Of a stretch of DNA of 64,000 bases, positions 24,229 through 55,625 are shown one piece after another; within the stretch, counting starts at the first letter, position 1, and every line of letters begins with the position of its first letter. The position numbers were made by a program, and so were the translations under genes. The DNA lies in NCBI RefSeq assembly GCF_965198245.1, contig NZ_OZ240249.1, positions 1,244,200 to 1,308,199 of the forward strand, read 5' to 3'. The notes below the pieces were generated by a model. That model was not told the DNA's origin. It ran no database searches and saw only the letters and a program-made list of their open reading frames with translations. The stretch is from Candidatus Poriferisodalis sp. Its GTDB lineage: Bacteria; Actinomycetota; Acidimicrobiia; Acidimicrobiales; Poriferisodalaceae.

Positions 24229-27200
24229 TCATGACGCGTACGCAAGCAGAGCATCGAGGACTCTGAATGCTTCACCGCGAACCAGTTCGTCGTGATGAGC
24301 CTGATTGCGGTAGGTCCGCAGGCAGCCATAGCAACTCGCTTTCAGGGCGCACGCGCAATCGCCGACGATTTTCCTTGCCTGATCCGTGAGTTGCGCGAGT
24401 TCCTCACGAATCAGGCGGACGTAGCCGGCGCCGCCCGGCACCGAGTCGAAGATGATCAACGCAGTGCCGCCGCCATCAGGAAGAGGACGCAGTGTTCCGT
24501 CGACGTCATCGGTGGGAATGCCGAGCACCGGGGTTGCGGCAAGCAACGATTGCAGGGTGCTGCGCGCTTCGATTCGGCTAAGCGGCCTCTTCAAGTCAAG
24601 TTCGAGTACGTCGGTCAGAAAAGTATGTCCAAGGTCAAGAACGCGCGGTCGTCCGCTGCATTCTCGTTGAGAACCAGGCCTGTTGTGGGTTCTCGGAGGC
24701 TTCTTTCGGTCTTGGTTGACGAGTGGTTCTCCATACCCGCACGTCAGACACATTCGAAAGCCTCGTGATGCCGGTCCAGCGTTGATGGCGGTGATCTGTC
24801 CCTGCCGACTGAAGCGAGCACCGATCGTGACGTTTTCTATCGGTGCCTGCTCCCACGGGGGCTGTTCCCCTTCGTAGTCACTGAAGAACGAACGTGCCCA
24901 ACCCGCTCGAGGCGGCCGGGTCTCCCCAGGCTGTTCCCGACTCCTGTAGCCGATGAAACCGAATTGCGGTACGACGAATTGCCGCTCGGCGATTGGGTTG
25001 CTGCAGGCACTGCACGGTGGCGCGAGGTGATGATCCTCGGCATCGAAATCGCGTCGTACACGAAAATCGCCGCACTTCTGACACTCGGAGTAGGAGCGTG
25101 CATAGAGTGCCCGACCCGGCGGGGCTCGCAATCCGTCGGATTCCCAGATGGCCTTCTTCGCCACCACCTTGGAACCTGGTGCGTACTCGGTGATGCCCCA
25201 GCGCAGGTCTCTGTTGAGATCGAGCGCTCCGGCGTCACGGTCGCCGTCGCGCCAAAGATCCAGTACGGCGACGTCGACCGGGAACCCGTACTTGGGCAGA
25301 ACAACGCGCGTCGCCAAGTAGTCAATCAATGGTCGCTTCTCCAAGGTGGCTTGGACCCGCCTCAGGGCACCTCGGCGGTGGGCTTGCTTGGACGCGGCGT
25401 CGCTATGTCCTTGGTTGGACAATTGGCGCTCTTGTTGGTCTGCGTCTTCGATTGCACGTTCGATCTCTGCCAGATCCTCTCGAATCGATTCAGCGGCGCG
25501 CCTGAGCGAGCCAGCGGGTTCGTCGGCTTGGTTACCAGTAGTGCCTGCGGTCAAGTGGTCGACCCATTCCCACGTCTGAACACCGAGTTCTGGGGCCACA
25601 GCCTCCGGCGTAATGCGAGCTATCGCCCGTCCGAGTTCCTCCGGATATGAACGCAGCCAGTCGACAAATTCGTCGACCGCAGCCGGTCGGCCATCTGTGG
25701 GGCGAAAGAACGACGCCACATCCCTGTGCGGTTCGCGCCCCGTGGTCGCGATGCGGCGCTCGAATGCCGCGAACGCCACGGCGTGAATATGCCGTCGCAC
25801 AATCTGCGAATTCCGTAGCGACACGATCGGCACCTCGACGTGTCCGTCGATGAGACGCTGAGGCTCTCTGAAGTGATGGAGGTCGTGGCTGCGGCGCTGC
25901 GCGAATGTGACAACCAAGGCCGACTTGCCGGCTCGCCGGCCGGCCCGGCCGGCCCTCTGCACATAGTTGGCCGGCGTCGGCGGTACGTTGCGCATCAATA
26001 CCGCCTGCACGTCGCCGACATCGACGCCAAGTTCGAACGTCGTCGTGCAGCTCAGAGCGTTTATCCGGCCATCGAGGAAGTCCTGCTGATATGTGCGGGC
26101 TTGGTCGGCTGAGAGCTGACCTGTGTGCTCTTGAACGCTCATGCCCGAAGGAACCAGCGTCGTGTAGAGCCGCCCATAGTGATCGGAGGCAGACAAGTCG
26201 ACATCGGTCACGGGACGCAGCGAACCCGCGCACTGCCAAGTGGGACATACGTCGTTCACACTTCGCCATGCAACCTGCCGACAGGTACGGCACACATAGG
26301 CGGGATGTCCTTCTCGGGCTGGCACGAACCGGATCCACTCGGGGTCGATTGCGAAGGTGTGTCCCGTTTGTCTTCCGCTGCGGGACGGGAATGCCTTGTC
26401 CCAACCGCTGCCCCGGTCGGTGAGCCATCTCCATAGGCCGTCGAGAATCACCCGCTCGTCGGCCACTGCACCGCGACGGTCCAGGACCTTGTGCAGGTAA
26501 TCCATGCGACGATTCGTGCCACGGGTGGGCAGCCATGACAGCACCTTCCCGGCGCTGCCTTCCGCGCGAACCGTGGTCACGACGTTTCGCGGAGCGAACA
26601 CCTGCTCATCGATGCTCACGCCGTCAGGCAGCCAGACAGCGGCCTGCATTCGCAATGTGTCCAGCAAGACCGCCACGATGTCGAATACCTCGGCATCGCT
26701 GAAACCGAGCTGTCTCAGAGGCTCGGGCGGTCGAGCGCGTCGCGGCACGGCGACAGTGATCTCGCCGAGCCCGCTGCCGTCGAGGCTTTGACGACGATCT
26801 GTCGCCAATACCTCGGCCATCAGCCACGTTCGCACTTGTCGCCGCTTGGAGTCGCCGCTGGCATCTGGGTCGAGAACAAGATGGTCTTCTGCGAGCCTCT
26901 GGATAGGCAACACGAGATCGTCGAACCGCAAGTCGTCATCGCTGTCCCGGTCAATTGCCAGCCAGATCATCCGGCGCTGGACGGCGCGGGCGTAGGTGCG
27001 TTCGAGGTACGGCGCGAAGAAGGCCGCGTCTTGGCGGCTGTCCGCAAACATCAGCAGCTTGCGACCCTCGCCGATCTCAGGCACGACACCAGCCGGGATG
27101 TCTCCGGGCGGCAGCGCCTGATACAGGCTGGTTGCGGCCACTGCGACGGGCGCGTCTTGCCCGGTGAAGAAGCGCAGCACGATCTGGCCGTTCGTGCGCC

Positions 27201-28764
27201 CGGAACAAGTGGGACATCGGCGGAGCGGGTCATTTGGGCGCTTGGGCTTGGCGAAGACGATTCGTTCTGAGGCACCGGTCGCTCCGCAAGGACAACGTTC
27301 CTCCCCTGAGTCGCTCAGGCGACCGCAAGCAGTACAGACATGTCGGTAGTCGACCTCAGCCTCCACCTCTTCGTCGTCGACAACAGCGGCCTCGTCCTCG
27401 TCGTCGGTTTCGAGTTGTCGGCCGATCAGCAGGTAGGCCAGATTGGTTCGCTGCGGCGGTGCTTGGACCAGCCGGTCCGAGTGCTCAGGTTCTGCGGCAT
27501 CGATAGTGGCATCTTGGAGACTTCCCACGAGGAAACCCGCACCACAGCGAACGCAAAGGCCGAGTTCGAACATCTGCGAGTCGACACCGCTGTCGTCACA
27601 GCTCGGGCAGGTGTGATGTCGCTCAAGTTGCACCCTCGGTGTCGCGGGGTCGTGTGCCGGTGATCGGCACACGAAGGCGCCTTCTAGAGCCCGCAGCATG
27701 TAATGGAAGCGAGCTGGTGCATCGGTATCCGGCTCATCGACGGACGGTGTCACGATGTCCTGTCGCGCAGATTCGGTTTCGTGGTGCTCGATCAGCTCAC
27801 CAAACAGATCGGAGGCGAATCTCGCGATTCGGGACGAGGCACCCGTGCCGGTACCGAGCGTCGCAGAGGTGCCAACGAACTGCAGGCGACCGGGCTGGCT
27901 TTGCACCACGCGGTCGCGCAGACGCCGCAGCAGCATGGCGATTTCAGCGCCACGCGCGCCGTTGTATACGTGCATCTCGTCGAGCACGATCCAGCGCCAA
28001 TGCTCTCCGGTCGGGCCGTCGAACAGTGTCGTATCAACGGGCCGCAGCAGCAGATACTCGAGCATTGCGTAGTTCGTGAGCAGAATGTGGGGCGGGCGCT
28101 CTCGCATCTCTTCCCTCGACACAAGTTCGCCGTTATCGGGGTCAGCGCCCGTAGCGCCACGATGTGCTTCTACGCCCTCGCGGTGCCGCTCTCGCGTTGC
28201 GCCGATATACCGCCCGAACGTGATCTGGGGAAAGGGCCGCAGTAGATCGCGTAAGCGCTGCATCTGATCGTTGGCGAGCGCATTCATCGGGTAGAGCAAC
28301 AACGCTCGCACCCCGGGTTGACTCAGCGTCCCGGCATCGCCTTCGGTAAGGAGTTGATGCAGAATCGGGAAGAGATAGCACTCGGTCTTACCCGATCCCG
28401 TGCCAGTCGCGATGACTAGATTGCGACGCGCCACAGCCTTGCGCAGAGCGCCTTCCTGATGCTGATACAGAGGTCGCGCTGGCGGGAACACGCCCGGGTC
28501 CAGTTGAGTGAAGCGCTCATGCAGCAGCCCTGTCGAGACAAGATCACTCAGCGAGGCGCCGGTGGCATAAGCGGGAGTCGGTTGACGAAATGGGCCCTTC
28601 TCGCTCTGGAATCGCTCGTCCAGAGCAAGATGAACTTCTGCGCGCAGCGACGCGTCGGCCGGCGAGTAGCGGGTCTTCAAGTAGCGCCGATACGACTCGC
28701 CGATGCTCTTCGCAGCGGCGGCAGGATCGAATCCTGCTGCGTCGGAGTTGCGGTACTCAGTCAC
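24229..28764 (-). CDS. Large (1511 aa) SF2 DExH-box helicase with a multi-Zn-ribbon insert between the RecA lobes and a C-terminal DUF1998 (MrfA-type Zn-binding) domain. DruE/DrmA+DrmB-like.
   Basis: Motif Q/I YQHQ...ATGTGSGKTE, motif II DEMH, motif III TSATLG, motifs V-VI TTTFELGVDVGD and QRAGRAGRR. CxxC pairs (HHTCPSCDD..CVRCG, CTACG..CPCG, CPTCSG) lie between the lobes. C-terminus CLTCGYGE ... CACALKASCYGCLRTYRNQAHHDELVRGEA is the DUF1998 signature. Confidence 0.85.
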   Translation of the reverse strand: MTEYRNSDAAGFDPAAAAKSIGESYRRYLKTRYSPADASLRAEVHLALDERFQSEKGPFRQPTPAYATGASLSDLVSTGLLHERFTQLDPGVFPPARPLYQHQEGALRKAVARRNLVIATGTGSGKTECYLFPILHQLLTEGDAGTLSQPGVRALLLYPMNALANDQMQRLRDLLRPFPQITFGRYIGATRERHREGVEAHRGATGADPDNGELVSREEMRERPPHILLTNYAMLEYLLLRPVDTTLFDGPTGEHWRWIVLDEMHVYNGARGAEIAMLLRRLRDRVVQSQPGRLQFVGTSATLGTGTGASSRIARFASDLFGELIEHHETESARQDIVTPSVDEPDTDAPARFHYMLRALEGAFVCRSPAHDPATPRVQLERHHTCPSCDDSGVDSQMFELGLCVRCGAGFLVGSLQDATIDAAEPEHSDRLVQAPPQRTNLAYLLIGRQLETDDEDEAAVVDDEEVEAEVDYRHVCTACGRLSDSGEERCPCGATGASERIVFAKPKRPNDPLRRCPTCSGRTNGQIVLRFFTGQDAPVAVAATSLYQALPPGDIPAGVVPEIGEGRKLLMFADSRQDAAFFAPYLERTYARAVQRRMIWLAIDRDSDDDLRFDDLVLPIQRLAEDHLVLDPDASGDSKRRQVRTWLMAEVLATDRRQSLDGSGLGEITVAVPRRARPPEPLRQLGFSDAEVFDIVAVLLDTLRMQAAVWLPDGVSIDEQVFAPRNVVTTVRAEGSAGKVLSWLPTRGTNRRMDYLHKVLDRRGAVADERVILDGLWRWLTDRGSGWDKAFPSRSGRQTGHTFAIDPEWIRFVPAREGHPAYVCRTCRQVAWRSVNDVCPTWQCAGSLRPVTDVDLSASDHYGRLYTTLVPSGMSVQEHTGQLSADQARTYQQDFLDGRINALSCTTTFELGVDVGDVQAVLMRNVPPTPANYVQRAGRAGRRAGKSALVVTFAQRRSHDLHHFREPQRLIDGHVEVPIVSLRNSQIVRRHIHAVAFAAFERRIATTGREPHRDVASFFRPTDGRPAAVDEFVDWLRSYPEELGRAIARITPEAVAPELGVQTWEWVDHLTAGTTGNQADEPAGSLRRAAESIREDLAEIERAIEDADQQERQLSNQGHSDAASKQAHRRGALRRVQATLEKRPLIDYLATRVVLPKYGFPVDVAVLDLWRDGDRDAGALDLNRDLRWGITEYAPGSKVVAKKAIWESDGLRAPPGRALYARSYSECQKCGDFRVRRDFDAEDHHLAPPCSACSNPIAERQFVVPQFGFIGYRSREQPGETRPPRAGWARSFFSDYEGEQPPWEQAPIENVTIGARFSRQGQITAINAGPASRGFRMCLTCGYGEPLVNQDRKKPPRTHNRPGSQRECSGRPRVLDLGHTFLTDVLELDLKRPLSRIEARSTLQSLLAATPVLGIPTDDVDGTLRPLPDGGGTALIIFDSVPGGAGYVRLIREELAQLTDQARKIVGDCACALKASCYGCLRTYRNQAHHDELVRGEAFRVLDALLAYAS

Positions 28765-29626
28765 CCCAGAAATCCTCGGCGGAGTTCTCGATGTGATGCA
28801 GGCCTAGGGCGAGCAGGATGCTGCGCGTCGTCAACAGTGGGGCGATCTCGGCAGCGTCACGTAACGCAGTCGCAGCCTCAGCCGTGTCTGCCCGTCCTGA
28901 CGAGCTGTCGATCAGGTGAAATGCGGCTGCGAGGACATCTGCGGGGAACTTGTGCCACGCAGGCCTTTCCGACTCAGGCCGGACCAAGTCGAGCAGGGTG
29001 AGTTGCCGGGCGCTGAACCTCTGGGCGTAGGAGTAGACCGCATTGTGCGATGAGCGCCAATGCCTGATGCGCTCACGGTCTGGTGACCTGCGGCTGCCCG
29101 GTGCTCGGGCTGGCTCGTGCCAAGTGTTGGTCAGCATCTCGAACGCCGCATCGAGGTAGCCGCCCCACTGCAGCGGCAATGAACCGGATGGCGGCAAGGC
29201 CTGCTGCAATTCCCGCAACCTCTCTGGCCCGAACTCGTCGAGCGGAGGGGTGACGGGCTCGATTCGACCTTCAATTGGTGCCGCGCCAGTTGCGGGTCGC
29301 CAACCGCTGAAGCGTTGCCACCGGTCGAGGCTCGCGTCGGCGAGATCGCTCGGACTACTGCCGACGAACGGATTGTCTAGCGCCGCGGCTACGGTCGGGA
29401 GGGTCTTCCACAGGCGCTCCAGATCCCAATCTGTGTATCCGGCCGAGCCGTGAGCGGATGCGACGATGGCTAACTCGAGCTTGCGGAGAACCTGCGCCGG
29501 AAGCTCGGCGAGCATCGGGGCCAGACGCGGCAACAGACTGTCAGAGGTCAACACCAACTCGACGAGGTCGACCAAGGTATTCGATGCTCCTGCATTCGTC
29601 GCACTGAGCTGTGCCGCGGCCTCCAT
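28757..29626 (-). CDS. Hypothetical 289-aa protein, middle gene of the helicase operon
   Basis: Its stop overlaps the helicase start by 8 nt. Mostly helical-looking, with no motif recognised. Confidence 0.6.
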   Translation of the reverse strand: MEAAAQLSATNAGASNTLVDLVELVLTSDSLLPRLAPMLAELPAQVLRKLELAIVASAHGSAGYTDWDLERLWKTLPTVAAALDNPFVGSSPSDLADASLDRWQRFSGWRPATGAAPIEGRIEPVTPPLDEFGPERLRELQQALPPSGSLPLQWGGYLDAAFEMLTNTWHEPARAPGSRRSPDRERIRHWRSSHNAVYSYAQRFSARQLTLLDLVRPESERPAWHKFPADVLAAAFHLIDSSSGRADTAEAATALRDAAEIAPLLTTRSILLALGLHHIENSAEDFWGD

Positions 29627-29680
29627 GGCACTAGCGAGTTCGTCGGTTGCGGAGGCTGCTGCGCTGATATCCAGGCTCTT

Positions 29681-32335
29681 TTAACGGGCGGCACCTGCGA
29701 CGACAAGCTCGAGCGCCTCGAGTGGGGCCTCGGTGCGAAGACCCTCAAGTCGGATCCGCCGCTGCAGTTCCGATCCGACGAGCACATCGCGTGTGCCTGC
29801 TTGGCCGGGAATCGGCAACGTTGGCGAGGACCACTCATCGGCCAAGGTGACTTCGGCCACGTAGGGACCCGGCGGCAGCAGCAGGATTGCCTCGCATCGG
29901 CCAGCGACGTCGTCCTCCACTTCGACGCAAACGGGCTGCTCCCACGGCCGATGCTCTGACCAGAGCCGGAGTTGGCGACCAGTGAACTGGCGGTTCTCCG
30001 TCCACTCGGCGCTGACAAGGCACTCGGCGGTCTCCGGGTCGAGTTCCGTGCTGATCTCCAAGTCGCTCACAATGAACTGTGCCTCTACCACGGCGATGGG
30101 CTCGCTCAGGTCGTCGACATGGAGGATGAGATCTAGCCGAGGAGCCGTCGCAGCGGCGATTGTCGTCCGCAGTTCGGCAAGCGAGAAGGACCACCACCCG
30201 ACCGGGCTATTGGTTTGCAGAGGCCCGATCTCGTAAGGGCTTGCGTCACTGCGCAGTTCAAGTCGCAGTGTTGCCGGCCGACCGCATCGAACCAAGACCG
30301 ACCCGACTGCGCCTGATTCAATCTCGTCGAGTCCGATTCGCAGCCGCTCAACTCCGAGGGTTGGGAAGGATCCGTCGGTTCGGCGAAGCGCCCAGGTCAA
30401 TCGAGGAATCGTGACAGCGAAGGCGGTGCCGCCGGCTGTGAGGGGAACGGTGTCCTGGCCTGCCTCAAACGACAACCTCGCTTCTGAAACTCGCGCACCG
30501 CCTTCGAGAAGGAGTTCGGCATCCGCGGTGACGCGAACCTCGACGACCTCGCGCGGTACGAAGATGCGATCAGGGACATCGACGGCGAGTCCCTGAATGA
30601 CGGTTATGTCCTCGCGAATGTCGCTGCCCAATGGGCCAGACACCTCGATCGTGCCCGCGAATGCAGGGGCAGAAGGCAAGAGCGCCGCCAATTCAAATGC
30701 GCCCTCCGCACACGGCAAGTCTGCGAGTCGCGTAGTGGTCGGCGAGCGATTCTCGGCCGACGCATCTGTGGCAGGTTCGCTTTCGCTTCGAATCTCGCGC
30801 CAACGGACGCGCCACCTTTGTGGATCGGCGTCCTCGGGCATCGCAATACTCGGTGGCTCAGCGAACACGCCGCCGCCGAGCATCCCTCTTGTGCCACTGA
30901 CCGGCGCCGTCGCCAATTTGGGCCGTGCGGGGGCTCGGGCCACGGCCAGCTCCGTCAATTCCTCATCGCCGCCCGGCCCAGGAGGAGGCTTCACCAGCAC
31001 GGCAGCTACCCCCTCGAGGTCGAAGCTTCTCAGCACCCAGCCATTCCATGCGCCTGCCCGCGGAGGAAGTTCCTCTGGACTCGGGATGGGCATTCCATCG
31101 GAGTCGGTGATGGCTACGCCTGGTGATGTCAGAATCAACGCTTGGCTGGCGGGCAGCCGGTGCTGCTGACGTGTGAGATTGCCGGAGGCATCGAACACGT
31201 ATGCGTGAACCCGCTCCAAACCCGCAAACTGTCGCTCCGACTGCCGGTTGGCCGAGTGCTCGCGCCACTCAAGCGTTGCAGTCCAGCCATGCGACGGCGC
31301 GAGCGGGATATCGCGCGGATCATGCCTGCGCGTCGCGAATCTGTGTGTCATAGCACCCTGGATCAGCCACCCGCCTTCATGCGGAAAAGGCGGAAGCGTC
31401 ATGTACGGACCATCACACGAGTAGCGGTCGATTCGGACAGTGGGTCGAGGCGGACGTCGCCCACGCCGGGCCGAACGTCGTTCGTCGTTGAGCAGGGCCC
31501 GCGTCAAGTACCGGGGCAGTCCTGCGTCGGCAGAGAGTTCTGCGATGAGGTCGGTCGCGTCACGTCCGAGTTCGGCGATGTCGGCGGCCGTGTCGATCAC
31601 CCGCTGCAGAAGGTCGCTGGCAAATTCGTCGCCATACTCGAAGAAGCGTTGTACTGGCTTCGCAAGTCCTGACCAGCGGGTGCTGGACTGTCGTATGCGA
31701 CCGATGAGCTCGTCGGCATCCCAGATGCCATCGCGCAATCCGGCAAACACCAAATCTGCGACTTCGTCTGCGCACGCAGCAGGGATGCCTCCGTGCATGA
31801 GAATCGGGCTCACATACGCGAGCCAGCGTTCTCGAGCCGCCGCGTAGCTGAAGTTCTCGAGTCCGAGTTCGTCCAGTGCCGACAGAAACGCCCTGCCTAC
31901 CTTGGACTGATCGACACCTGATGAGAGGTACGGGGCAATGGCAATGTTGGGCCAGAACGTACCTTCGTCGTAACAGCGCGCACCTTCGGCGGCGAGAAAT
32001 GCTGCAGTCGAGGCGGGGTAGCGCTTCAGGCGATCAGGCACACCGTGCTGGGCGACCTTGAGGACGACGTCTCTAGCCCTCTTGAGAATCGATCCATCAG
32101 CGGAGAGGTCGAGTTCGCTGACAATGCGAATGCCGTCGAAATGACGTCGAAGCTCGCGTTCGACGAAGTACGGGTTGTCGGTGGATTGCCGCGGTGCTTG
32201 CTGTTCATCATCCGCATTACCCGTGGACATATGTGAAACGTATCCGGCTTGCATCAGCCGATGCCCGATGTGTGGCCGCAGGATCTCGAGGCCAGAGCTG
32301 TCCGTGCTGGTGCACTGGGCAGTCGATGGGCCCAA
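29681..32335 (-). CDS. Hypothetical large protein (up to 884 aa), first gene of the helicase operon. Helical N-terminal half and a beta-rich (Ig-like?) C-terminal half.
   Basis: Long ORF with coding-like composition, 54 nt upstream of the 289-aa gene. I could find no Walker, nuclease or methylase motif. The listed start is a TTG; Met28 (32254) or Met36 (32230) are alternatives. Confidence 0.6.
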   Translation of the reverse strand: MGPSTAQCTSTDSSGLEILRPHIGHRLMQAGYVSHMSTGNADDEQQAPRQSTDNPYFVERELRRHFDGIRIVSELDLSADGSILKRARDVVLKVAQHGVPDRLKRYPASTAAFLAAEGARCYDEGTFWPNIAIAPYLSSGVDQSKVGRAFLSALDELGLENFSYAAARERWLAYVSPILMHGGIPAACADEVADLVFAGLRDGIWDADELIGRIRQSSTRWSGLAKPVQRFFEYGDEFASDLLQRVIDTAADIAELGRDATDLIAELSADAGLPRYLTRALLNDERRSARRGRRPPRPTVRIDRYSCDGPYMTLPPFPHEGGWLIQGAMTHRFATRRHDPRDIPLAPSHGWTATLEWREHSANRQSERQFAGLERVHAYVFDASGNLTRQQHRLPASQALILTSPGVAITDSDGMPIPSPEELPPRAGAWNGWVLRSFDLEGVAAVLVKPPPGPGGDEELTELAVARAPARPKLATAPVSGTRGMLGGGVFAEPPSIAMPEDADPQRWRVRWREIRSESEPATDASAENRSPTTTRLADLPCAEGAFELAALLPSAPAFAGTIEVSGPLGSDIREDITVIQGLAVDVPDRIFVPREVVEVRVTADAELLLEGGARVSEARLSFEAGQDTVPLTAGGTAFAVTIPRLTWALRRTDGSFPTLGVERLRIGLDEIESGAVGSVLVRCGRPATLRLELRSDASPYEIGPLQTNSPVGWWSFSLAELRTTIAAATAPRLDLILHVDDLSEPIAVVEAQFIVSDLEISTELDPETAECLVSAEWTENRQFTGRQLRLWSEHRPWEQPVCVEVEDDVAGRCEAILLLPPGPYVAEVTLADEWSSPTLPIPGQAGTRDVLVGSELQRRIRLEGLRTEAPLEALELVVAGAAR

Positions 32336-32378
32336 AATGCGTTGCCGAACCGGGCGGCGTGTGTTCTAGCGTGAGGTC

Positions 32379-32651
32379 ATGACAGCGGGCATGATGGCAG
32401 CGACACAGCTTGTCGTCGAGGCGTGGGCGGTACTCGTAGCCGCCGCGGGCATCGTCGCCAGCGTGCTCGGCACCGGCTTGGGCATCACCTTCCACCTCAG
32501 CGGACGCATCGACCACCAGTCGGATCGCATCGACCACCAGTCCGACCGCATCGACGGCGTGACCGCCGAGGTCGCCTTGGTGCGTGAGCGCGTAGCACGC
32601 CTGGAAGGCAGCTCCGGCACACCCGATCCGGGTCCGTTGCAGCTCGCCTGA
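32379..32651 (+). CDS. Small (90 aa) membrane-anchored protein with a tandem heptad repeat (RIDHQSD x2.5)
   Basis: N-terminal TM helix (AVLVAAAGIVASVLGTGLGI). The repeats are encoded by 21-bp units at 32505..32525, 32526..32546 and a partial unit at 32547..32555. Divergent from the 884-aa gene (44-bp gap). Confidence 0.4.
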   Translation: MTAGMMAATQLVVEAWAVLVAAAGIVASVLGTGLGITFHLSGRIDHQSDRIDHQSDRIDGVTAEVALVRERVARLEGSSGTPDPGPLQLA

Positions 32652-32702
32652 GCAAGCCCCTCTCGACGCTGCCCGCAGTGAGCGATCAGCACTTCGAGGG
32701 CT

Positions 32703-33179
32703 TCATGTGCGGCGGGCCATCATCATGTTCGCCACCGCGCGCACCACCGTGGTGCCGTCCTGGTTGACGAGTTCGTGGGTCATCTTGATGATGCCGCGGT
32801 CGGGCTTGGAGCGGCTCGGGCGAACCTCCAGAATCTCGACCACGAGGGTGAGAGGGTCGCCTGGATACACCGGTGCCAGCCAGCGCAGTTCGTCGAGACC
32901 AGGCGAACCCATGCTCGATGGCCCCAACAGGTATTCACCCAGCATCCTCATCATGATCGAGCCGGTATGCCATCCCGACGCGATGATCCGGCCATAGACG
33001 GTGTTTCGGGCTGCCTGGGGATCGATGTGGAAGGGCTGCGGGTCGAACTTACGGCCGAATTCGATGATCTCGGCCTCGTCGATGGTCGTCGTTCCGAACG
33101 TAAAACGTTCACCGGCCTCGTAGTCGTCGAACCATCGCTGCGGGCAGGGAATGTCGCTGGGCATCGTGACAGTCTGCAC
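32703..33179 (-). CDS. MaoC-like (R)-hydratase / hot-dog fold dehydratase, intact copy
   Basis: 158 aa. FDPQPFHIDPQAA...GRIIASGWHTGS is the MaoC hydratase motif. Lies directly downstream of aceE on the same strand. Confidence 0.8.
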   Translation of the reverse strand: MQTVTMPSDIPCPQRWFDDYEAGERFTFGTTTIDEAEIIEFGRKFDPQPFHIDPQAARNTVYGRIIASGWHTGSIMMRMLGEYLLGPSSMGSPGLDELRWLAPVYPGDPLTLVVEILEVRPSRSKPDRGIIKMTHELVNQDGTTVVRAVANMMMARRT

Positions 33180-37531: not shown

Positions 37532-38236
37532 TCAGGCCGGTGACAGCGCGTCGGTGACGATTTCGCCGGGAATATGGCCCTGGCCGCGCTCAGTAGTGCC
37601 GTCGGCTCGTACAAGCATCCAGGTGGGTTGAGATCGGACGCCGAACGCATCCCACAGATCCCCGCTCTCGTCACCGAAGTGGGGCATCTGCTCGAGTCCG
37701 TGAGAGCTCACGAATCCCTCGAAGGAAGCGATGGAGTCGTGCGCGGCGACGCCCACGATCACCAAGTCATCCCCGTGTTCTGCTTTCAGCTCTGCGACCG
37801 CAGGAGCTTCTCTCCGGCAGGCCGGTCACCACGGAGCCCAGAACCACAGCAGCACGTCGTTGCCTGCTGCAGCAGCCAGCTCGAAGGGCTGCCCGTCAAC
37901 CTGGCTCGTGTCGAGCAGGAGTATCTCGGGCCGGGTCTCGGCCGCTGAGGCGCTCTCGTCTGCCGATGATCCTTCAGTGGCGGAGGCATTTGCGCCACCG
38001 TCGGCTGCTACGGGTTCGACACTCTCGGCGGCAGATGCCGGTTCGACGCTCTCGGCGGCAGATGCCGGTTCGACACTTTCAGCAGCGGCTGCGCTCGAAG
38101 GCTCGTACGTCTCGGCGACATCCGTCGGAGACGCTGTCGAAGACGCGTCGTCATCGGTACCGCAACCCGCCAACACCATGAGGCTGATGGCGCACGCAGC
38201 CAAGCCGACAGTCCGGCGGCGGGCGAATGCGGTCAC
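37532..38236 (-). CDS. TlpA/ResA-like thioredoxin-fold lipoprotein with an in-frame TGA (37826..37828) replacing the first Cys of the WAPW-C-PAC active site. Candidate selenoprotein (UxxC) or recent pseudogene.
   Basis: GTG start at 38236, lipobox LMVLAGC, and a repeat-rich Ala/Glu/Ser linker. Then ...NDVLLWFWAPW-TGA-PACRREAPAVAELKAEHGDDLVIVGVAAHDS...GVRSQPTWMLV (cis-Pro loop). ORFs 37826..39217 (C-terminal part) and 37532..37765 are in the same frame, 20 codons apart. Confidence 0.55.
38013..38093. repeat. 27-bp coding tandem repeat x3 (GGTTCGACACTCTCGGCGGCAGATGCC) giving (ESVEPASAA)3 in the lipoprotein linker
   Basis: Units at 38013..38039 and 38040..38066, and a diverged unit at 38067..38093. 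Read directly. Confidence 0.8.
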
Positions 38237-38464
38237 GGTGCGAATCTTACCCGTGGGGACATGGGGGTCCCGGTAGCGACCGTCGCTACATTCGTCCGCG
38301 TGAGCACCCGGGCGTTGCTTGTCACAGCGCTTGTCACGGGCGTCGTCATCCTGGTGGCGTTCGCGATCCGGGTGCTGATCTGGTTGTAGCGCTTCGGCGC
38401 CGGTCTGGACAGATGATCGCCCCGGTGCAAACGGCTGAGCCCCGAGGCGTACCCTCGTCGCGCG

Positions 38465-39928
38465 ATGGCAGATGAAGCGAATTCCGGCGAATCGAGCGCC
38501 CCGGTTCGTTACGACCTCGTCGTGATCGGCGGCGGGCCCGCGGGCTACGGGGCGGCGCTGTATGCCGGCGCGGCGGGCATGAAGGTCGCGCTGGTGGAGC
38601 GGGACCGGCTGGGCGGCACGTGCTTGCACCGGGGCTGCATACCCGCCAAGGAGTTGCTTGAGACAGCAGCCGTGTGGCGCACGGTGAGCGAAGCAGCCGA
38701 GTTCGGCGTGAACACCGAGCCGCCCGAGCTGGACTTCAGCGTCTCGCAGGGCCGCAAGCAACGCATCGTGGACGGCCTCGAAACCGGGGTGAAGGGACTG
38801 CTGCGGCGCCGCAAAGTCGCGGTGCACGAGGGGACGGGCCGGCTGGGCACCGACCGGTCGGTCGCGGTGCGCAACGGCGAGTCCGAGACCCAGACGCTGC
38901 ATGGTGACCATGTCTTGCTGGCGGCGGGTTCGGTGCCCATCACACTGCCGGGATTCGATCGCGACGGGACGCTCGTGATGACTTCGGACGAAGTCTTGGC
39001 GCTGGACGAGGTGCCAGGTCGCGTCGCCGTGATTGGCGGCGGGGCCATCGGCTGCGAATTCGCTTCGATGCTGGCCGACCTCGGCGCCGACGTGACCGTG
39101 CTCGAGTACGCGCCACAGATCATTCCCGGCGTCGATGGGGACATCTCCAAGGCCCTGACCCGGGCGTTTGCCAAGCGGGGCATCAACGTGCGGACGGGCT
39201 GCGGGGTCACTGGTCACACGCCGCTCGACGATGGCGGCACGACCGTGCGATACACGGCAGCTGCGTCAGAGGGCGACGACGCCGACACGGCCGAGCTGGA
39301 AGTGGACGCGGTGGTGGTGTCGGTGGGACGGCGGCCGTACCCAGACCACCTCGGCCTCGATGACACCGAAGTCAAAGTCGATGAACGAGGCTTCGTCGTC
39401 GTTGACGAGCTGTGCCGAACGACGATGGCCGGCGTCTACGCCGTGGGCGACCTCATCAATACGCCTCAGCTTGCCCATGTCGGCTTCGCAGAGGCGATCG
39501 TTGCGGTGAAGGACATCCTGGGCGAAGACCCCGCGCCGGTGGACTACCCCAATGTGCCGTGGGCGATCTACTGCCATCCCGAGGTGGCCTTCACCGGGCT
39601 GTCCGAAGCAGCGGCTCGCGAAGCCGGCTACGACGTGGTGTCGTCCAAGCACCGCTACAGCGGCAATTCCCGGGCGATGATCGTCAACGACACCGAGGGC
39701 CTCGTCAAGATCGTGGCCGAGCGTGATGCCGACGGCTCCGCCGGGCGCGTGCTCGGCGTTCACATGATGGGGCCGTGGGTCACCGAGCAGCTCGGTCAGG
39801 GCTACCTGGCGGTCAACTGGGAGGCCACGGTCTCCGAGGTGGCCGCATTGGTGCAGCCGCATCCAACGTTGTCCGAGCTGTTCGGCGAGACGATGATGGC
39901 GCTCACAGGTCGGGGGCTCCACGGATGA
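38465..39928 (+). CDS. lpd: Dihydrolipoyl dehydrogenase (E3)
   Basis: GGGPAGYGAALYAG, redox-active disulfide GGTCLHRGCIPAK, NAD site VIGGGAIGCEF, C-terminal HPHPTLSE. Confidence 0.9.
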   Translation: MADEANSGESSAPVRYDLVVIGGGPAGYGAALYAGAAGMKVALVERDRLGGTCLHRGCIPAKELLETAAVWRTVSEAAEFGVNTEPPELDFSVSQGRKQRIVDGLETGVKGLLRRRKVAVHEGTGRLGTDRSVAVRNGESETQTLHGDHVLLAAGSVPITLPGFDRDGTLVMTSDEVLALDEVPGRVAVIGGGAIGCEFASMLADLGADVTVLEYAPQIIPGVDGDISKALTRAFAKRGINVRTGCGVTGHTPLDDGGTTVRYTAAASEGDDADTAELEVDAVVVSVGRRPYPDHLGLDDTEVKVDERGFVVVDELCRTTMAGVYAVGDLINTPQLAHVGFAEAIVAVKDILGEDPAPVDYPNVPWAIYCHPEVAFTGLSEAAAREAGYDVVSSKHRYSGNSRAMIVNDTEGLVKIVAERDADGSAGRVLGVHMMGPWVTEQLGQGYLAVNWEATVSEVAALVQPHPTLSELFGETMMALTGRGLHG

Positions 39929-43130: not shown

Positions 43131-43229
43131 GGCACCCCTCTCAAACACCCCGAAACGTTCCGCGTAGCGAACCCTGGACTTACCTATGCTGCCGACAGGT
43201 TTCGAACTCGACTTGTTTGGTGAGGCCGT

Positions 43230-44771
43230 GTGGCGGCAGTTGCCGATGATCTGCTTGCGGCTGGACCGTTGACGCGTGCCGAGCAACGCCGCATCGCGCA
43301 GGCTGAGGGACTGACTGCGGAATGTCGTTCGGAGCTTGGGCAGTACTTCACTCCTGCCCCCATAGCGAGACTGTTGGCCGACATGTTCGAACCGCCGGAG
43401 GGACGGGTACGCGTCCTGGACCCCGGTGCCGGCGTCGGTTCGCTCTCGGCTGCACTAGTTGAACGCGCAGCCAGCGAGGGATGGCACTGCTTGCTGGACG
43501 TAACAGCCCTGGAAGTCGACGATCGCCTGCTGGAAGGTCTCGAAGCGACCCTCAGTGACTGCTGCGATGTAATGCCCTCAGTTCAGGGTCGTGTCGAGCA
43601 TTCGGATTTTTTGACATGGGCTGCGGCCCAGGCAGCGCCAGAGATGTTCCAGCGAGAACGTCTGCCGTTCGATCTCGTCATCATGAACCCGCCATACGGC
43701 AAGCTGCGCACAGCTTCGGCGACTCATGAGCGGCTTCGACGTCTTGGTGTTCGTACGAGCAACCTGTATTCGGCCTTTGTCTGGCTTGCTAGCCGCTTGC
43801 TCGTTCCCGGTGGCCAGCTGGTCGCGATCACCCCGAGGAGTTTCTGCAACGGGTCGTATTTCAGGCCATTCCGGCAGGCCCTGCTGGACGATTGTGTGCT
43901 ACGGGACATCCACGTCTTCGAATCCCGCGACACCGCATTTCGCGACGGCGCGGTGCTGCAAGAGAACATCATCTTCAGGATCGTTCGGTCCGCTCAGCGC
44001 CCCCCGGTGCAGATCGCCGTCAGTTCGGGTTCGGGTCTCGACGAACCTCGCCGGCATGAAGTCAGCGCCGACTCGGTCGTCCACCCGAAGGATCCACGGC
44101 TCTTTATTCGCATACCCGAGGACCCCGCGAGCGTCGTGCTGGCGGAGCACGTAGGAGGCCTCCCGCAGACGCTGGCAGGATTGGGTGTCACAGCCTCGAC
44201 AGGCCGGGTGGTGGACTTTCGGTCGCGGGAGCACCTGCGTGAAGACTGCGACGGCGACGGCGACGCGATCCCGTTGATCTACCCCGGACACTTGCGGCGA
44301 GGCAGGATCAACTGGCCGGGTGAGTCCAACTCCAAGCCGTGCGCGATTGCGGTAACGCCGGCAACCAAAGGCATGTTCCTGCCTTCGGGTGAGTACGTGC
44401 TGGTCAAACGTTTCTCATCGAAAGAGGAACGCCGACGGGTAGTCGCGGCCGTGCTGGAATCCTTGGATCTGCCGAGCGATGTCGTCGCCATGGAGAATCA
44501 CGTCAACGTGCTGCACGTCTCGAACCGAGGCATGGAACGCTATCTCGCATGGGGATTGGCGGCCTACCTCAACTCGACGATTGTCGACCTGTTCTTCCGG
44601 CAGTTCAACGGGCATACACAAGTGAACGCTGCCGACTTGGAGTCGCTTCGGTATCCGGACGTTCAGTCCCTCCTGGCCTTGGGTGCCGAGGCACGCTCAG
44701 CTAATTTCGAGCAGGCAGCCACGGACTTGCTGGTGGAACGCCACGTCCCGGCTCTCGAAGGTGTGCGGTGA
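43230..44771 (+). CDS. N6-adenine DNA methyltransferase of the M.PstI/M.BsuBI (Eco57I-like, gamma-class) type
   Basis: 513 aa. GQYFTPAPIARLL, motif I VLDPGAGVGSLS, motif IV DLVIMNPPYGK. Size and partner gene match the PstI family (M.PstI is about 507 aa). 4-nt overlap with the downstream endonuclease gene. Confidence 0.75.
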   Translation: MAAVADDLLAAGPLTRAEQRRIAQAEGLTAECRSELGQYFTPAPIARLLADMFEPPEGRVRVLDPGAGVGSLSAALVERAASEGWHCLLDVTALEVDDRLLEGLEATLSDCCDVMPSVQGRVEHSDFLTWAAAQAAPEMFQRERLPFDLVIMNPPYGKLRTASATHERLRRLGVRTSNLYSAFVWLASRLLVPGGQLVAITPRSFCNGSYFRPFRQALLDDCVLRDIHVFESRDTAFRDGAVLQENIIFRIVRSAQRPPVQIAVSSGSGLDEPRRHEVSADSVVHPKDPRLFIRIPEDPASVVLAEHVGGLPQTLAGLGVTASTGRVVDFRSREHLREDCDGDGDAIPLIYPGHLRRGRINWPGESNSKPCAIAVTPATKGMFLPSGEYVLVKRFSSKEERRRVVAAVLESLDLPSDVVAMENHVNVLHVSNRGMERYLAWGLAAYLNSTIVDLFFRQFNGHTQVNAADLESLRYPDVQSLLALGAEARSANFEQAATDLLVERHVPALEGVR

Positions 44772-45718
44772 ACCACCAGATCACCCAGCGCATCTCCGAG
44801 GCGCAGTGGATTCTCAAGGAACTCGGATTCCCTCCTGCGCAGAGCAACGAGCGCTCTGCACTTGCCTTTCTCGCGCTTCTTGACGTGAAGCCCGACATGC
44901 CATGGGCGGCGGCGGGCACCCCGCTGCGGGGCATCACCGAGATGATGAAGTTCATGCGTGTCCACTACGGCAAGGACTATGCGCCCAATACCCGCGAGAC
45001 GGTTCGACGGCAGACAATTCACCAGTTCTGCGCCGCCGGTTTGGCTACAAAGAACCCCGACGATCCCGACCGCCCCACCAACAGCGGCAAGACCGTCTAC
45101 CAGGTCAACGGCATTGCCTGGACGCTGGCCAAGGCCTACGGCACCGACGCTTGGTCAGAACGCCTGGCCACCTATCTCGAGCGGGTAGGGACGCTCGCCG
45201 ACCAGCTTGAGCGCCAGCGCCGGCTGCGTCGCATTCCGGTGCGTTTGCCTGATGGCACCTCCGTCGATCTCTCGCCAGGAGGTCAGAACCCGCTCATTAG
45301 GGAGATCATCCAAGGGTTCTGCCCAAGATTCACGCCCGGAGGAGCCGTTTGGTACATCGGCGATGCCGATGAGAAGTTCGCGGTCTACGACGAAAACGCA
45401 TTCATGCGAGCTCGTATCAGCGTTCCCCATCACGGCAAGATGCCCGATGTCATCGTCGAGCATGTGGACGAGTCGTGGCTCGTCGTTGTCGAGGCCGTGA
45501 CATCTCACGGACCCATCGATCCGAAGCGCCGAGCCGAGTTGGACCAGCTCTTGCAATCGCCGCGTCTCGGACTCGTCTACGTCACGGCGTTCTCAGATCG
45601 AGCGACCTTCCGTCAATACGTCGCAGACATCGCGTGGGAAACCGAAGTTTGGATTGCCGAATCGCCTGACCATCTCATTCACTTCGACGGATCCAAGTTC
45701 TTGGGTCCCTACGACTGA
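44768..45718 (+). CDS. BsuBI/PstI-family type II restriction endonuclease
   Basis: 316 aa (R.PstI is about 326 aa). The N-terminal region ISEAQWILKELGFPPAQSNERSALAFLALL and the C-terminal catalytic half (...PDVIVEHVDESWLVVVEAVTSHGPIDPKRR) resemble that family as I recall it. Not verified by search. Confidence 0.6.
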   Translation: MNHQITQRISEAQWILKELGFPPAQSNERSALAFLALLDVKPDMPWAAAGTPLRGITEMMKFMRVHYGKDYAPNTRETVRRQTIHQFCAAGLATKNPDDPDRPTNSGKTVYQVNGIAWTLAKAYGTDAWSERLATYLERVGTLADQLERQRRLRRIPVRLPDGTSVDLSPGGQNPLIREIIQGFCPRFTPGGAVWYIGDADEKFAVYDENAFMRARISVPHHGKMPDVIVEHVDESWLVVVEAVTSHGPIDPKRRAELDQLLQSPRLGLVYVTAFSDRATFRQYVADIAWETEVWIAESPDHLIHFDGSKFLGPYD

Positions 45719-55571: not shown

Positions 55572-55625
55572 GAATCAGGTCCTAACAGGCCGCGCGGATA
55601 GGCAGAACATCGATCGGCGACGTTA

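What the first reader, a model, noticed from the sequence alone, without database searches (positions are those of the whole stretch)
37532..38236. In-frame TGA exactly at the first Cys of the CxxC motif of a TlpA-like thioredoxin lipoprotein: candidate selenoprotein or very recent pseudogene
Reading the minus strand gives ...GNDVLLWFWAPW-TGA-PACRREAPAVAELKAEHGDDLVIVGVAAHDS...GVRSQPTWMLVRADG... The stop at 37826..37828 occupies the position of the nucleophilic Cys of W-C-x-x-C. The frame continues without interruption (20 codons to the next listed ORF, same frame). Every downstream hallmark of the redoxin fold is intact, including the resolving Cys and the cis-Pro loop. UxxC thioredoxin-fold selenoproteins are established in bacteria. 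A small stem-loop follows 7 nt after the TGA: GCCGGAG-agaag-CUCCUGC, 7 bp with one C-U mismatch, at 37800..37818. I cannot judge whether it is SECIS-competent. The alternative is a single TGC/TGT to TGA nonsense mutation.
Basis: partly seen in the sequence, partly recalled or inferred. Interest (0 to 1): 0.65.

Follow-up and report, generated by a model that had tools for sequence, protein, structure and literature searches.

The report
Selenocysteine DsbE/DsbF-like redoxin lipoprotein gene
The "stop" codon in the middle of this gene is almost certainly read as selenocysteine, so this is an intact but mis-annotated selenium version of a cell-surface disulfide-exchange enzyme, a known kind of selenoprotein that turns out to be common in marine, sponge-associated and soil Actinobacteria.

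Summary
A minus-strand gene (38236..37532) encodes a lipoprotein with a TlpA/ResA/DsbE-type thioredoxin-fold domain. An in-frame TGA (37828..37826) sits where the first Cys of W-C-x-x-C should be.

It is not a pseudogene or a sequencing error.
- The same TGA occurs in every close ortholog found: 23 truncated protein clusters, and 12 syntenic loci read from several independent assemblies.
- 103 of 120 metagenome contigs that carry WFWAPW-TGA have a Cys three codons later and an intact, conserved frame of at least 40 codons (about 100 where the contig allows).
- Downstream dN/dS is 0.23-0.32 at dS about 1.
- More distant homologs, including M. tuberculosis DsbF and DsbE, have Cys at this position.

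A hairpin at 37808..37788 follows the TGA. It has a GGUC tetraloop, a 3-4 bp upper stem, a bulged C and a lower stem. It shows compensatory changes across 61 sequences and has the same architecture as the E. coli fdhF SECIS.

I could not reach selA, selB, selC or selD of this genome with the tools. That step rests on inference and literature.

Verdict: a real, unannotated selenoprotein; a new member of a known kind (UxxC redoxins).

The parts
37532..38236 (-). Complete selenoprotein CDS. It has 234 residues plus the terminal TGA, a GTG start, and Sec at codon 137. Public gene callers split it into a 127-164 aa 'hypothetical protein' and a 76-aa 'TlpA family protein disulfide reductase'.
   Evidence: sequence and translation. 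(truncated database entries). (read-through in orthologs).
38162..38236 (-). Signal peptide ending in the lipobox L22-A-G-C25 (38173..38162). This predicts a lipid-anchored extracytoplasmic protein.
   Evidence: motif coordinates. The lipobox [LV]-[AVST]-[GSA]-C is present in all but one of the 23 orthologous N-terminal fragments; P0195 has L-A-A-C. Localisation is inferred from sequence only.
38013..38077 (-). 27-nt tandem repeat (2.4 copies, coding AAESVEPAS) inside the low-complexity Ala/Ser/Glu/Pro/Thr linker between the lipid anchor and the redoxin domain.
   Evidence: TRF: period 27, 94% matches. The linker is unrelated in L005 although the domain is identical.
37535..37939 (-). Thioredoxin-fold redoxin domain (residues 100-234, ETRPEIL...ALSPA), homologous to M. 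tuberculosis DsbF/DsbE, ResA and TlpA.
   Evidence: Pfam. (PDB: 3IOS 1e-22, 1LU4 1e-20, ResA about 1e-10, TlpA 6e-8). (ortholog alignment).
37826..37828 (-). In-frame UGA, codon 137, at the position of the nucleophilic Cys of the W-C-x-x-C motif. Predicted selenocysteine.
   Evidence: The same codon is TGA in L001-L007, L010, L011 and L212-L216, and in 103 UxxC plus 4 UxxU metagenome loci. It is Cys in DsbF/DsbE and in 78 GTDB homologs.
37817..37819 (-). Resolving Cys140 (TGC) of the U-P-A-C motif.
   Evidence: Invariant in the ortholog alignment.
37788..37808 (-). Predicted bacterial SECIS hairpin: AGCU-C(bulge)-CUGC [GGUC] GCAG-AGCU. The loop GGUC is at 37799..37796, and 26 nt separate the UGA from the loop.
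   Evidence: it is the MFE structure of the 60-nt stretch. (61 sequences: 86% paired against 69.5% shuffled; covariation 0.40 against 0.11, 0/500 shuffles reach it; compensatory pairs). (U-A to G-C switch within the sponge clade). (same architecture as E. coli fdhF).
37619..37633 (-). S-Q-P-T-W loop holding the conserved cis-Pro (P204) of the thioredoxin fold, downstream of the UGA.
   Evidence: coordinates. Q104/P105 are nearly invariant in alignment A3 and align with QQP of DsbF.

Best explanation
This is an intact gene for a selenocysteine-containing, lipid-anchored extracytoplasmic thiol-disulfide oxidoreductase of the actinobacterial DsbE/DsbF (TlpA/ResA-like redoxin) type, with active site W-U137-P-A-C140.

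Proposed decoding: during translation, UGA137 is not read as stop. The mRNA hairpin 18-38 nt downstream (GGUC tetraloop, short upper stem, bulged C, lower stem) recruits SelB-GTP-Sec-tRNA(Sec), which inserts selenocysteine. The ribosome then translates the remaining 97 codons, which include the hairpin itself (it codes A-P-A-V-A-E-L).

Proposed function: the pre-protein is exported, lipidated at Cys25 and held on the outer face of the membrane by a flexible, repeat-containing linker. There the selenolate of U137 attacks substrate disulfides and is resolved by Cys140 through a selenenylsulfide. This gives a faster or lower-pKa version of the Cys enzyme.

Shown here:
- conservation of the TGA;
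- purifying selection downstream of it;
- Cys in homologs;
- a covarying hairpin;
- homology to DsbF/DsbE.

Inferred:
- actual Sec insertion;
- presence of selA/selB/selC/selD in this genome;
- export and lipidation;
- direction of catalysis and substrates.
For: 1. TGA at the same codon in all close orthologs. There are 23 distinct 90% clusters of N-terminal fragments, all ending ...WFWAPW. Twelve syntenic ortholog loci were read from independent assemblies (ENA long-read and short-read, NCBI). All have TGA and 97-103 open codons after it.
2. The downstream part is translated. dN/dS is 0.23-0.32 at dS 0.8-1.2 among four diverged orthologs, with no frameshift or stop.
3. Family breadth. Of 120 metagenome stretches with WFWAPW-TGA, 103 have Cys at +3 and at least 40 conserved codons. 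Four are UxxU, 3 are cut by contig ends and 10 are chance matches.
4. Cys in homologs. DsbF 3IOS (WFWAPWCPTC) and DsbE 1LU4 have Cys, as do 78 GTDB genomes. The protein searches found no Cys-form relative above 49% identity.
5. The hairpin has a GGUC loop invariant in 61 sequences. Pair types are CG47/GU8/GC6, UA44/GC9/CG8, GC55/UA5/AU1 and, outside my selection criterion, CG35/UA7/AU5/GC4/UG3. Covariation is 0.40 against 0.11 for shuffles, and slid controls reach 31-57% paired against 86%. One change is purely synonymous and compensatory: CCU...GCA to CCC...GCG in L099.
6. Of the other 38 unique family sequences, 33 have a hairpin of at least 5 bp with a GU-containing loop, in most about 9 nt further on.
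7. The distance from UGA to loop is 26 nt, inside the 16-37 nt range given for bacterial SECIS (PMC10778597). The architecture equals that of E. coli fdhF folded the same way.
8. TGA is otherwise a normal stop here. It ends aceE, lpdA, the E2 gene and this gene itself.
9. Sec machinery is reported in a sponge Acidimicrobiia bin (SelA, SelB, SelD; PMC5649159 Table S4) and in all Actinomarinales genomes (bioRxiv 10.64898/2026.04.03.716425).
Against: - No selA, selB, selD or tRNA-Sec in the 64-kb window, in 8.7 kb beyond its end, or in about 1.2 Mb of fetched loci. The rest of the roughly 3.86-Mb genome could not be read.
- A SelA search did not surface a Poriferisodalis protein among the 120 hits listed, nor did 10 representative clusters checked. 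This is uninformative rather than negative.
- The hairpin is not unusually stable: z = -0.08 against shuffles.
- No Rfam family matches.
- The upper four pairs of the class A alignment were a selection criterion, so their 100% pairing is circular. Only the pair types and the lower stem are independent evidence.
- Some orthologs (L006, L212) have a G-A mismatch in the lower stem.
- There is no direct evidence of selenium in the protein.
Confidence: 0.9

Rival explanations
1. Recent pseudogene: a single TGC/TGT to TGA nonsense mutation inactivated a Cys-type redoxin gene.
For: One transition or transversion from TGC/TGT gives TGA. Public annotation treats the gene as broken, with two ORFs (P0001 and P0157).
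Against: The same TGA is present in every ortholog at dS about 1 divergence and in more than 100 metagenomic homologs. All have intact 97-103-codon downstream frames and dN/dS of 0.23-0.32. A dead 3' half would accumulate stops and frameshifts.
Confidence: 0.02
2. Sequencing or assembly error at one base.
For: Long-read metagenome assemblies carry errors. Some neighbouring genes look split in L213 and L216.
Against: TGA is found in independent assemblies from different samples and technologies: ENA ERZ6103982, ERZ23495189, ERZ2506xxxx, NCBI GCA_965237655.1, OZ220497.1 and JGI metagenomes.
Confidence: 0.005
3. UGA is read through or recoded by something other than the Sec system. Examples are near-cognate Trp or Cys insertion, or a lineage-wide codon reassignment.
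For: The Sec machinery was not demonstrated in this genome. Conservation of the downstream ORF only proves read-through, not the identity of the inserted residue.
Against: TGA is the usual terminator of well-conserved genes in the window and of this gene, so there is no global reassignment. The codon is confined to the redox-active Cys position, the hallmark of Sec/Cys pairs. It is followed by a covarying hairpin with the GGUC loop architecture of the fdhF SECIS. Related lineages have the Sec machinery.
Confidence: 0.04
4. Two separate products: translation really stops at UGA137 and gives a lipoprotein stub, and the 76-77-aa downstream ORF (TTG/ATG about 37765) is made independently, as annotated.
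For: This is how NCBI and other gene callers annotate it. Some termination at UGA is expected when selenium is scarce.
Against: The 20 codons between the TGA and the annotated restart are among the most conserved of the protein (PACRREAPAVAELK...) and hold the resolving Cys. Neither half alone is a thioredoxin fold. Pfam and PDB alignments run straight across the TGA.
Confidence: 0.03

Closest known systems
Mycobacterium tuberculosis DsbF (Rv1677, PDB 3IOS) and DsbE/MPT53 (Rv2878c, PDB 1LU4)
   Same: These are the best solved-structure matches (E=1e-22 and 1e-20), aligned across the whole domain. They share the identical WFWAPW-[C/U]-P-x-C active-site context and the same Q-P cis-Pro loop. They are actinobacterial and exported (DsbF is a lipoprotein; that point is from my own knowledge).
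   Different: Those enzymes have Cys at the nucleophilic position, whereas this one has UGA/Sec. Identity is only about 40%. This protein carries a long low-complexity, repeat-containing linker.
UxxC thioredoxin-fold selenoprotein families of Zhang and Gladyshev: 'Prx-like thiol:disulfide oxidoreductase' (PF00578; UxxC, UxxU), 'Prx-like 1/3', 'Trx-like 1', 'Thiol:disulfide interchange protein'
   Same: The motif is the same (UxxC, with UxxU variants in the family). The best Pfam hit is the same (PF00578, then PF08534). There are many Cys homologs, and the family is abundant in marine metagenomes (PMC2398784, PMC1794560, PMC13188914).
   Different: The published reference sequences are from Deltaproteobacteria (Geobacter). 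I could not align to them, so identity with one of those named families is untested. This clade is actinobacterial and lipoprotein-type, and it is unannotated in the genomes that carry it.
E. coli fdhF SECIS (SelB-binding hairpin)
   Same: Both have a GGUC tetraloop, a 3-4 bp upper stem, a single bulged pyrimidine on the 5' side and a lower helix, and both lie inside the coding sequence just after the UGA (both folded).
   Different: The loop starts at nt 30 (U of UGA = 1) here and at nt 22 in fdhF. The bulge is C rather than U. Binding to SelB is untested.
NCBIfam NF041054 'ResA-like WAxxUGC motif-containing protein', also called the UGC-containing TlpA family
   Same: It is a ResA/TlpA-like selenoprotein with W-A-x-x-U context, and it gives a weak match (38 bits).
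   Different: The score is far below the cut-off (300). The motif here is U-P-A-C (UxxC), not U-G-C. The length and architecture differ.
TlpA (Bradyrhizobium), ResA (Bacillus), CcmG/DsbE (Proteobacteria)
   Same: They have the same fold and are extracytoplasmic, membrane-tethered reductases with a CxxC motif.
   Different: They are more distant (E=1e-8 to 1e-11) and all are below the NCBIfam cut-offs. They are Cys enzymes. No cytochrome-maturation genes are adjacent here; the neighbours are lpdA/E2/lipoate genes, an SRPBCC protein, RNase H and aceE.

Membership tests
Bacterial selenoprotein gene (UGA decoded as Sec) | In-frame UGA aligned with Cys in homologs, at a redox-active site | tested here: met
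   U137 aligns with the first Cys of CPTC in DsbF and with WFWAPWC in 78 GTDB genomes.
Bacterial selenoprotein gene (UGA decoded as Sec) | UGA conserved among orthologs, with the coding frame conserved on both sides | tested here: met
   Twelve syntenic loci and 23 protein clusters share it. Of 120 metagenome stretches, 103 UxxC plus 4 UxxU loci keep the frame. Downstream dN/dS is 0.23-0.32.
Bacterial selenoprotein gene (UGA decoded as Sec) | SECIS stem-loop inside the ORF, apical loop 16-37 nt after the UGA, G(U) in the loop | tested here: met
   The hairpin is at 37808..37788 with loop GGUC 26 nt after the UGA. It covaries. The distance range is from PMC10778597. The architecture is like fdhF. 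SelB binding was not tested.
Bacterial selenoprotein gene (UGA decoded as Sec) | selA, selB, selC (tRNA-Sec) and selD present in the same genome | not testable with these tools
   They are absent from the window and from all fetched flanks. The whole genome is not readable here. Indirect attempts failed. Related lineages have them.
Bacterial selenoprotein gene (UGA decoded as Sec) | Selenium actually incorporated (75Se labelling or mass spectrometry) | not testable with these tools
   This needs an experiment.
Thioredoxin-fold redoxin of the TlpA/ResA/DsbE-DsbF type | Domain models matched above curated thresholds | tested here: met
   With U replaced by C: PF00578 51.4 bits (cut-off 26), PF08534 47.9 (26.6), PF13905 40.1 (27), PF00085 37.5 (23.5).
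Thioredoxin-fold redoxin of the TlpA/ResA/DsbE-DsbF type | W-C-x-x-C active site and cis-Pro loop in register | tested here: met
   W-U-P-A-C and S-Q-P align residue for residue with DsbF. The columns are invariant or nearly invariant in A1 and A3.
Thioredoxin-fold redoxin of the TlpA/ResA/DsbE-DsbF type | Extracytoplasmic location (signal peptide or lipobox) | tested here: inconclusive
   The lipobox L-A-G-C follows a hydrophobic N-terminus and is conserved in all but one of the 23 ortholog fragments (P0195 has L-A-A-C). No dedicated predictor and no experiment were available.
Thioredoxin-fold redoxin of the TlpA/ResA/DsbE-DsbF type | Three-dimensional fold | not tested
Only sequence homology to solved structures is available.
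NCBIfam equivalogs: ResA (NF002854), TlpA (NF047696), DsbE (TIGR00385), WAxxUGC selenoprotein (NF041054) | Score above the curated cut-off | tested here: not met
   Scores against cut-offs: 54 vs 170, 48 vs 230, 42 vs 123, 38 vs 300. It is not a member of any of these named equivalogs.
Rfam SECIS families | Covariance-model match | tested here: not met
   There is no hit at gathering threshold in the window and no SECIS model at E<=10 in 37650-37950. According to the Actinomarina preprint, in-ORF bacterial SECIS elements are poorly represented in Rfam.
Published 'Prx-like thiol:disulfide oxidoreductase' (UxxC/UxxU, PF00578) selenoprotein family | Sequence similarity to the family's reference (WP_010940744.1) and a shared motif | not tested
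   The motif (UxxC, plus UxxU variants) and the Pfam model agree with the table in PMC13188914.

The most novel reading that the evidence does not exclude
The gene may belong to a large clade of DsbE/DsbF-type selenoproteins, probably actinobacterial and probably surface lipoproteins, that has not been described as such. Two things are only suggested by the data. First, Sec rather than Cys may be the long-standing state: a crude tree of 94 Sec and 78 Cys forms needs about 4 Sec/Cys switches. Second, the SECIS may have moved about 9 nt along the coding sequence in a second subclade, drawn from soil, sediment and some marine metagenomes, while keeping a GU-containing loop. The family also includes UxxU members, where one hairpin would have to serve two UGA codons 9 nt apart. 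Public annotation pipelines break the gene into two ORFs in every Poriferisodalis-clade genome and contig seen here.
Probability: 0.35. Interest if true: 0.45.

Novelty: new member of a known kind. Interest (0 to 1): 0.36.

Why it matters
- Annotation. In every Candidatus Poriferisodalis and related genome or contig seen here, this gene is recorded as a truncated 'hypothetical protein' plus a 76-aa 'TlpA family' fragment. The same error probably affects the metagenomic homologs, where the TGA would likewise be called a stop. No NCBIfam model recognises the family. A model with the UGA and its hairpin would repair these records.
- Selenium biology. It adds an exported, membrane-tethered disulfide oxidoreductase to the selenoproteome of sponge-associated and free-living Acidimicrobiia. 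This fits reports that sponge symbionts are enriched in SelA/SelB and that marine Acidimicrobiia keep Sec machinery.
- RNA evolution. The hairpin data give a clean natural example of an in-ORF SECIS evolving under double constraint from protein and RNA. It has synonymous compensatory changes and two alternative registers.
- Its E. coli-like GGUC loop makes heterologous expression a realistic test.

Tried and rejected
- Sec machinery in fetched DNA. tblastn of E. coli and Miltoncostaea SelA/SelB/SelD, and ARAGORN, found nothing in the window or in about 1.2 Mb of loci apart from generic GTPase hits.
- Sec machinery by protein search. I took an actinobacterial selD-selA-selB operon from a Miltoncostaea plasmid and searched with its SelA. 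The 120 listed hits include none from the Poriferisodalis contigs. P0132 proved to be another organism's sel operon. A representative search plus a cluster look-up of 10 candidates gave no named or matching contig.
- Extending the window. This gave 8.7 kb more and identified a 3.86-Mb circular contig that is 99.7% identical, but it held no sel genes.
- Other selenoprotein genes in the window. A GC3-based scan, a CxxU/UxxC motif scan and a TGA-plus-GGUC-hairpin scan found only this locus to be credible. The 21714 TGA is just two adjacent genes.
- Thermodynamic support for the hairpin: none (z = -0.08).
- Rfam: no match.
- Literature search for 'Poriferisodalis': no papers held. The BSepDB paper text does not mention this family or phylum.
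Full report
**1. What is in the sequence.**
- Reading the minus strand from GTG 38236 to the terminal TGA at 37534..37532 gives 234 sense codons with one internal TGA at 37828..37826, codon 137.
- The N-terminus (VTAFARRRTVGLAACAISLMVLAGCG) is a signal peptide ending in a lipobox L-A-G-C (38173..38162).
- A low-complexity Ala/Ser/Glu/Pro linker follows. It contains a 27-nt tandem repeat (38013..38077).
- A redoxin domain then starts at ETRPEIL (residue 100).
- The internal TGA lies in ...LLWFWAPW-TGA-PAC..., where the first Cys of W-C-x-x-C belongs.
- With Cys substituted, the protein passes the Pfam gathering scores of AhpC-TSA, Redoxin, Thioredoxin_8 and Thioredoxin, in single matches that span the TGA.
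- Its best matches among solved structures are M. tuberculosis DsbF (3IOS, E=1e-22, WFWAPWCPTC) and DsbE/MPT53 (1LU4, 1e-20). ResA and TlpA follow.

**2. Pseudogene or error?**
- A homology search returned five very different 'proteins' with no Pfam domain that all end ...WFWAPW. A second, domain-only search raised this to 23 distinct clusters. Several are named Candidatus Poriferisodalis sp., an Acidimicrobiia sponge symbiont.
- I fetched the DNA of 12 such loci from independent assemblies. All are syntenic: lipoate genes, E2 and lpdA lie upstream; an SRPBCC protein, RNase H and aceE lie downstream.
- All have TGA at the same codon followed by 97-103 open, alignable codons.
- Among four orthologs with 66-72% domain identity, the region after the TGA has dN/dS of 0.23-0.32 at dS 0.8-1.2. 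It is translated and under purifying selection.
- Independent samples and sequencing technologies rule out a base-call error.
- Gene callers and NCBI split the gene into a 'hypothetical protein' and a 76-aa 'TlpA family protein disulfide reductase' (P0001/P0157).

**3. How wide is the family?**
- A scan of one genome per GTDB species found only two close, TGA-bearing relatives: Ca. Poriferisodalis sp. and an Acidimicrobiales bacterium with a 2.9-Mb chromosome. It also found 78 Cys-type homologs at 35-46% identity in Streptomyces, Lentzea, Nocardiopsis, Mycobacterium and others.
  - 103 have Cys at +3 and at least 40 conserved downstream codons, mostly the full domain of about 100 codons.
  - 4 have a second TGA at +3 (UxxU) with the frame continuing.
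  - 3 are cut by contig ends.
  - 10 are chance matches in unrelated frames.
- The sources are marine, estuarine, sediment and soil metagenomes.
- A crude NJ tree of 94 Sec and 78 Cys forms needs only about 4 Sec/Cys changes, and 74 Cys forms fall in one clade. The sampling of the two sets is biased by the search patterns, so this is only indicative.

**4. The RNA element.**
It is not conserved.
- Immediately 3' of it, sharing its 3' arm, is another hairpin: AGCU-C-CUGC [GGUC] GCAG-AGCU (37808..37788). This is the MFE structure of the 60 nt after the UGA.
- I collected 61 unique family sequences that have GGUC at this position flanked by a 4-bp stem (alignment A2). In these the loop is invariant and the stem changes by compensation:
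  - pair 26-37: CG47/GU8/GC6;
  - pair 27-36: UA44/GC9/CG8;
  - pair 28-35: GC55/UA5/AU1;
  - pair 24-39 in the lower stem, which was not part of my selection: CG35/UA7/AU5/GC4/UG3.
- Overall, 86% of cells pair against 69.5% in shuffles. The covariation score is 0.40 against 0.11 (0 of 500 shuffles reach it). Sliding the partner by 1-3 columns drops pairing to 31-57%.
- Some changes are purely synonymous on both sides, for example Pro CCU/Ala GCA to CCC/GCG in L099. This points to selection on RNA, not protein.
- Within the sponge clade, the top pair of the lower stem switches from U-A (window) or U-G (L002) to G-C (L007, L213-L216). L006 and L212 have a G-A intermediate.
- Caveats: pairing of the upper 4 bp is circular in A2 because I selected for it, and the hairpin is not thermodynamically exceptional (z = -0.08).
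- Of the other 38 unique sequences, 33 have a 5-9 bp hairpin with an (A)GGU(N) or similar GU-containing loop. In most of them it lies about 9 nt further downstream and again carries compensatory variants: UCGCGC/GCGCGA, UCGCUC/GAGCGA, UGGCUGC/GCAGCCG.
- I folded the E. coli fdhF region the same way (UGA codon 140). It gives GG-U-UGC [GGUC] GCA-CC: the same tetraloop, short upper stem, 5' pyrimidine bulge and lower stem. Its loop starts at nt 22, against nt 30 here.
- The 26-nt gap between UGA and loop is inside the 16-37 nt range quoted for bacterial SECIS (PMC10778597).
- Rfam has no matching model.

**5. Is UGA otherwise a stop?** Yes. It terminates aceE, lpdA, the E2 gene, most high-GC3 ORFs of the window, and this gene itself. 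A global reassignment is excluded.

**6. The missing link.**
- The window has no tRNA gene and no selA/selB/selD. Neither do about 1.2 Mb of fetched loci, nor 8.7 kb beyond the window end.
- The window is 99.7% identical over 12.7 kb to a 3.86-Mb circular contig, ENA ERZ25072076 ctg246034_12x_c. The rest of that contig cannot be read with these tools.
- Attempts to reach the symbiont's SelA through an actinobacterial query failed for technical reasons: the output lists are capped and carry no way to filter by organism.
- The literature gives indirect support.
  - Slaby et al. 2017 report SelA/SelB enriched in sponge symbiont bins. Their Table S4 shows SelA=2, SelB=1, SelD=1 in the Acidimicrobiia bin76.
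  - A 2026 preprint reports selA, selB, selC and selD in all 84 complete Actinomarinales (Acidimicrobiia) genomes.

**7. Interpretation.**
- The gene meets the comparative criteria used to define bacterial selenoproteins: a Sec/Cys pair at a redox site, a conserved UGA with conserved flanks, and an in-ORF SECIS-like hairpin.
- The most likely mechanism is SelB-mediated Sec insertion at U137, directed by the GGUC hairpin. The product would be a lipid-anchored extracytoplasmic U-P-A-C thiol-disulfide oxidoreductase of the DsbE/DsbF type.
- Export, lipidation, catalytic direction and substrates are inferred from homology only.
- I put 0.9 on this. Non-Sec read-through gets about 0.04, genuinely split products about 0.03, pseudogene about 0.02 and sequencing error less than 0.01.

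**8. Relation to what is known.**
- UxxC thioredoxin-fold selenoproteins are well established and abundant in marine metagenomes. Named families include 'Prx-like 1' (PF00578), 'Prx-like 3' (PF08534), 'Trx-like 1', 'thiol:disulfide interchange protein' and 'Prx-like thiol:disulfide oxidoreductase' with UxxC/UxxU (PMC2398784, PMC1794560, PMC13188914).
- This family's Pfam profile, its motif and its UxxU variants fit the Prx-like group. I could not align to the published references, so membership in a named family is untested.
- It is not a member of the NCBIfam WAxxUGC selenoprotein family (38 against 300 bits), nor of the ResA, TlpA or DsbE equivalogs.
- Novelty is therefore modest: a new, unannotated, actinobacterial and sponge-symbiont member of a known kind, with a neatly documented SECIS.

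Noticed in passing
L121, L155, L168, L201 (metagenome loci; TGA-NNN-NNN-TGA just after WFWAPW): Four family members have a second in-frame TGA at the resolving-Cys position (W-U-P-F-U, W-U-P-V-U, W-U-S-T-U). The downstream domain is intact. Three of them (L121, L155, L168) carry the same GGUC hairpin with compensatory stems (CUAC/GUAG, CCAC/GUGG); L201 instead has the downstream-shifted type of hairpin. One hairpin would have to serve two UGA codons 9 nt apart.
   Followed up: partly
L090, L094, L095, L100, L108, L111, L115, L117, L125, L132, L148 and others (about 28 metagenome loci, mostly soil and sediment): In a second subclade the hairpin next to the UGA is replaced by a 6-9 bp hairpin about 9 nt further downstream (for example UCGCGC-AGGUG-GCGCGA), often preceded by a second GC-rich hairpin. 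The SECIS seems to have shifted register within the same coding region.
   Followed up: partly
window 38013-38077 (minus-strand linker, residues about 51-75): There is a 27-nt tandem repeat (2.4 copies, AAESVEPAS). P0177 has one copy fewer. L005 has an identical redoxin domain but a completely unrelated linker and N-terminus, so the linker turns over much faster than the domain.
   Followed up: partly
window about 22870-32710: Roughly 9.8 kb between the alpha/beta-hydrolase gene and the MaoC/aceE block has no counterpart in L001, L212 or L213, where the gap is 0-2.3 kb. It lacks high-GC3 ORFs and looks like a strain-specific island.
   Followed up: no
window about 43200-45700; L001 2627-5109; L212, L216; absent in L006, L007, L213: A BsuBI/PstI-type restriction enzyme plus an N6 methyltransferase sits between the lipoate-synthase-like gene and the enoyl-CoA hydratase in some genomes of the clade only. 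This is a variable restriction-modification insertion. Its presence in the window is inferred from 92.5% DNA identity to L001.
   Followed up: partly
L006 2987-3217; L213 12126-14836; L216 7021-9680: Several neighbouring genes are called as fragments in low-coverage long-read contigs: HpaB as 76 aa against 461 aa elsewhere, aceE split, and lpdA/E2 split. These are probably assembly indels, in contrast to the clean, conserved TGA of the redoxin gene.
   Followed up: no
window 37826-39217 (minus strand): the ORF listing reports a 463-aa ORF in the redoxin gene's frame. It runs far upstream through the intergenic region and antisense to lpdA. This is a mechanical artefact of high GC content; the real start is the GTG at 38236, as in the orthologs.
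   Followed up: yes
window 51318-63995 against L219: The window is 99.7% identical over 12.7 kb to a 3,859,807-bp circular contig (ENA ERZ25072076 ctg246034_12x_c, also in NCBI). That contig is therefore the source genome or a very close strain.
   Followed up: partly
L210 (Miltoncostaea oceani plasmid NZ_CP064357.1, 815 kb) and L217: Compact selD-selA-selB operons with overlapping stop and start codons occur in a Thermoleophilia megaplasmid and in an unidentified 1.57-Mb metagenome contig. They would be useful actinobacterial-type queries for anyone scanning the Poriferisodalis genomes.
   Followed up: no
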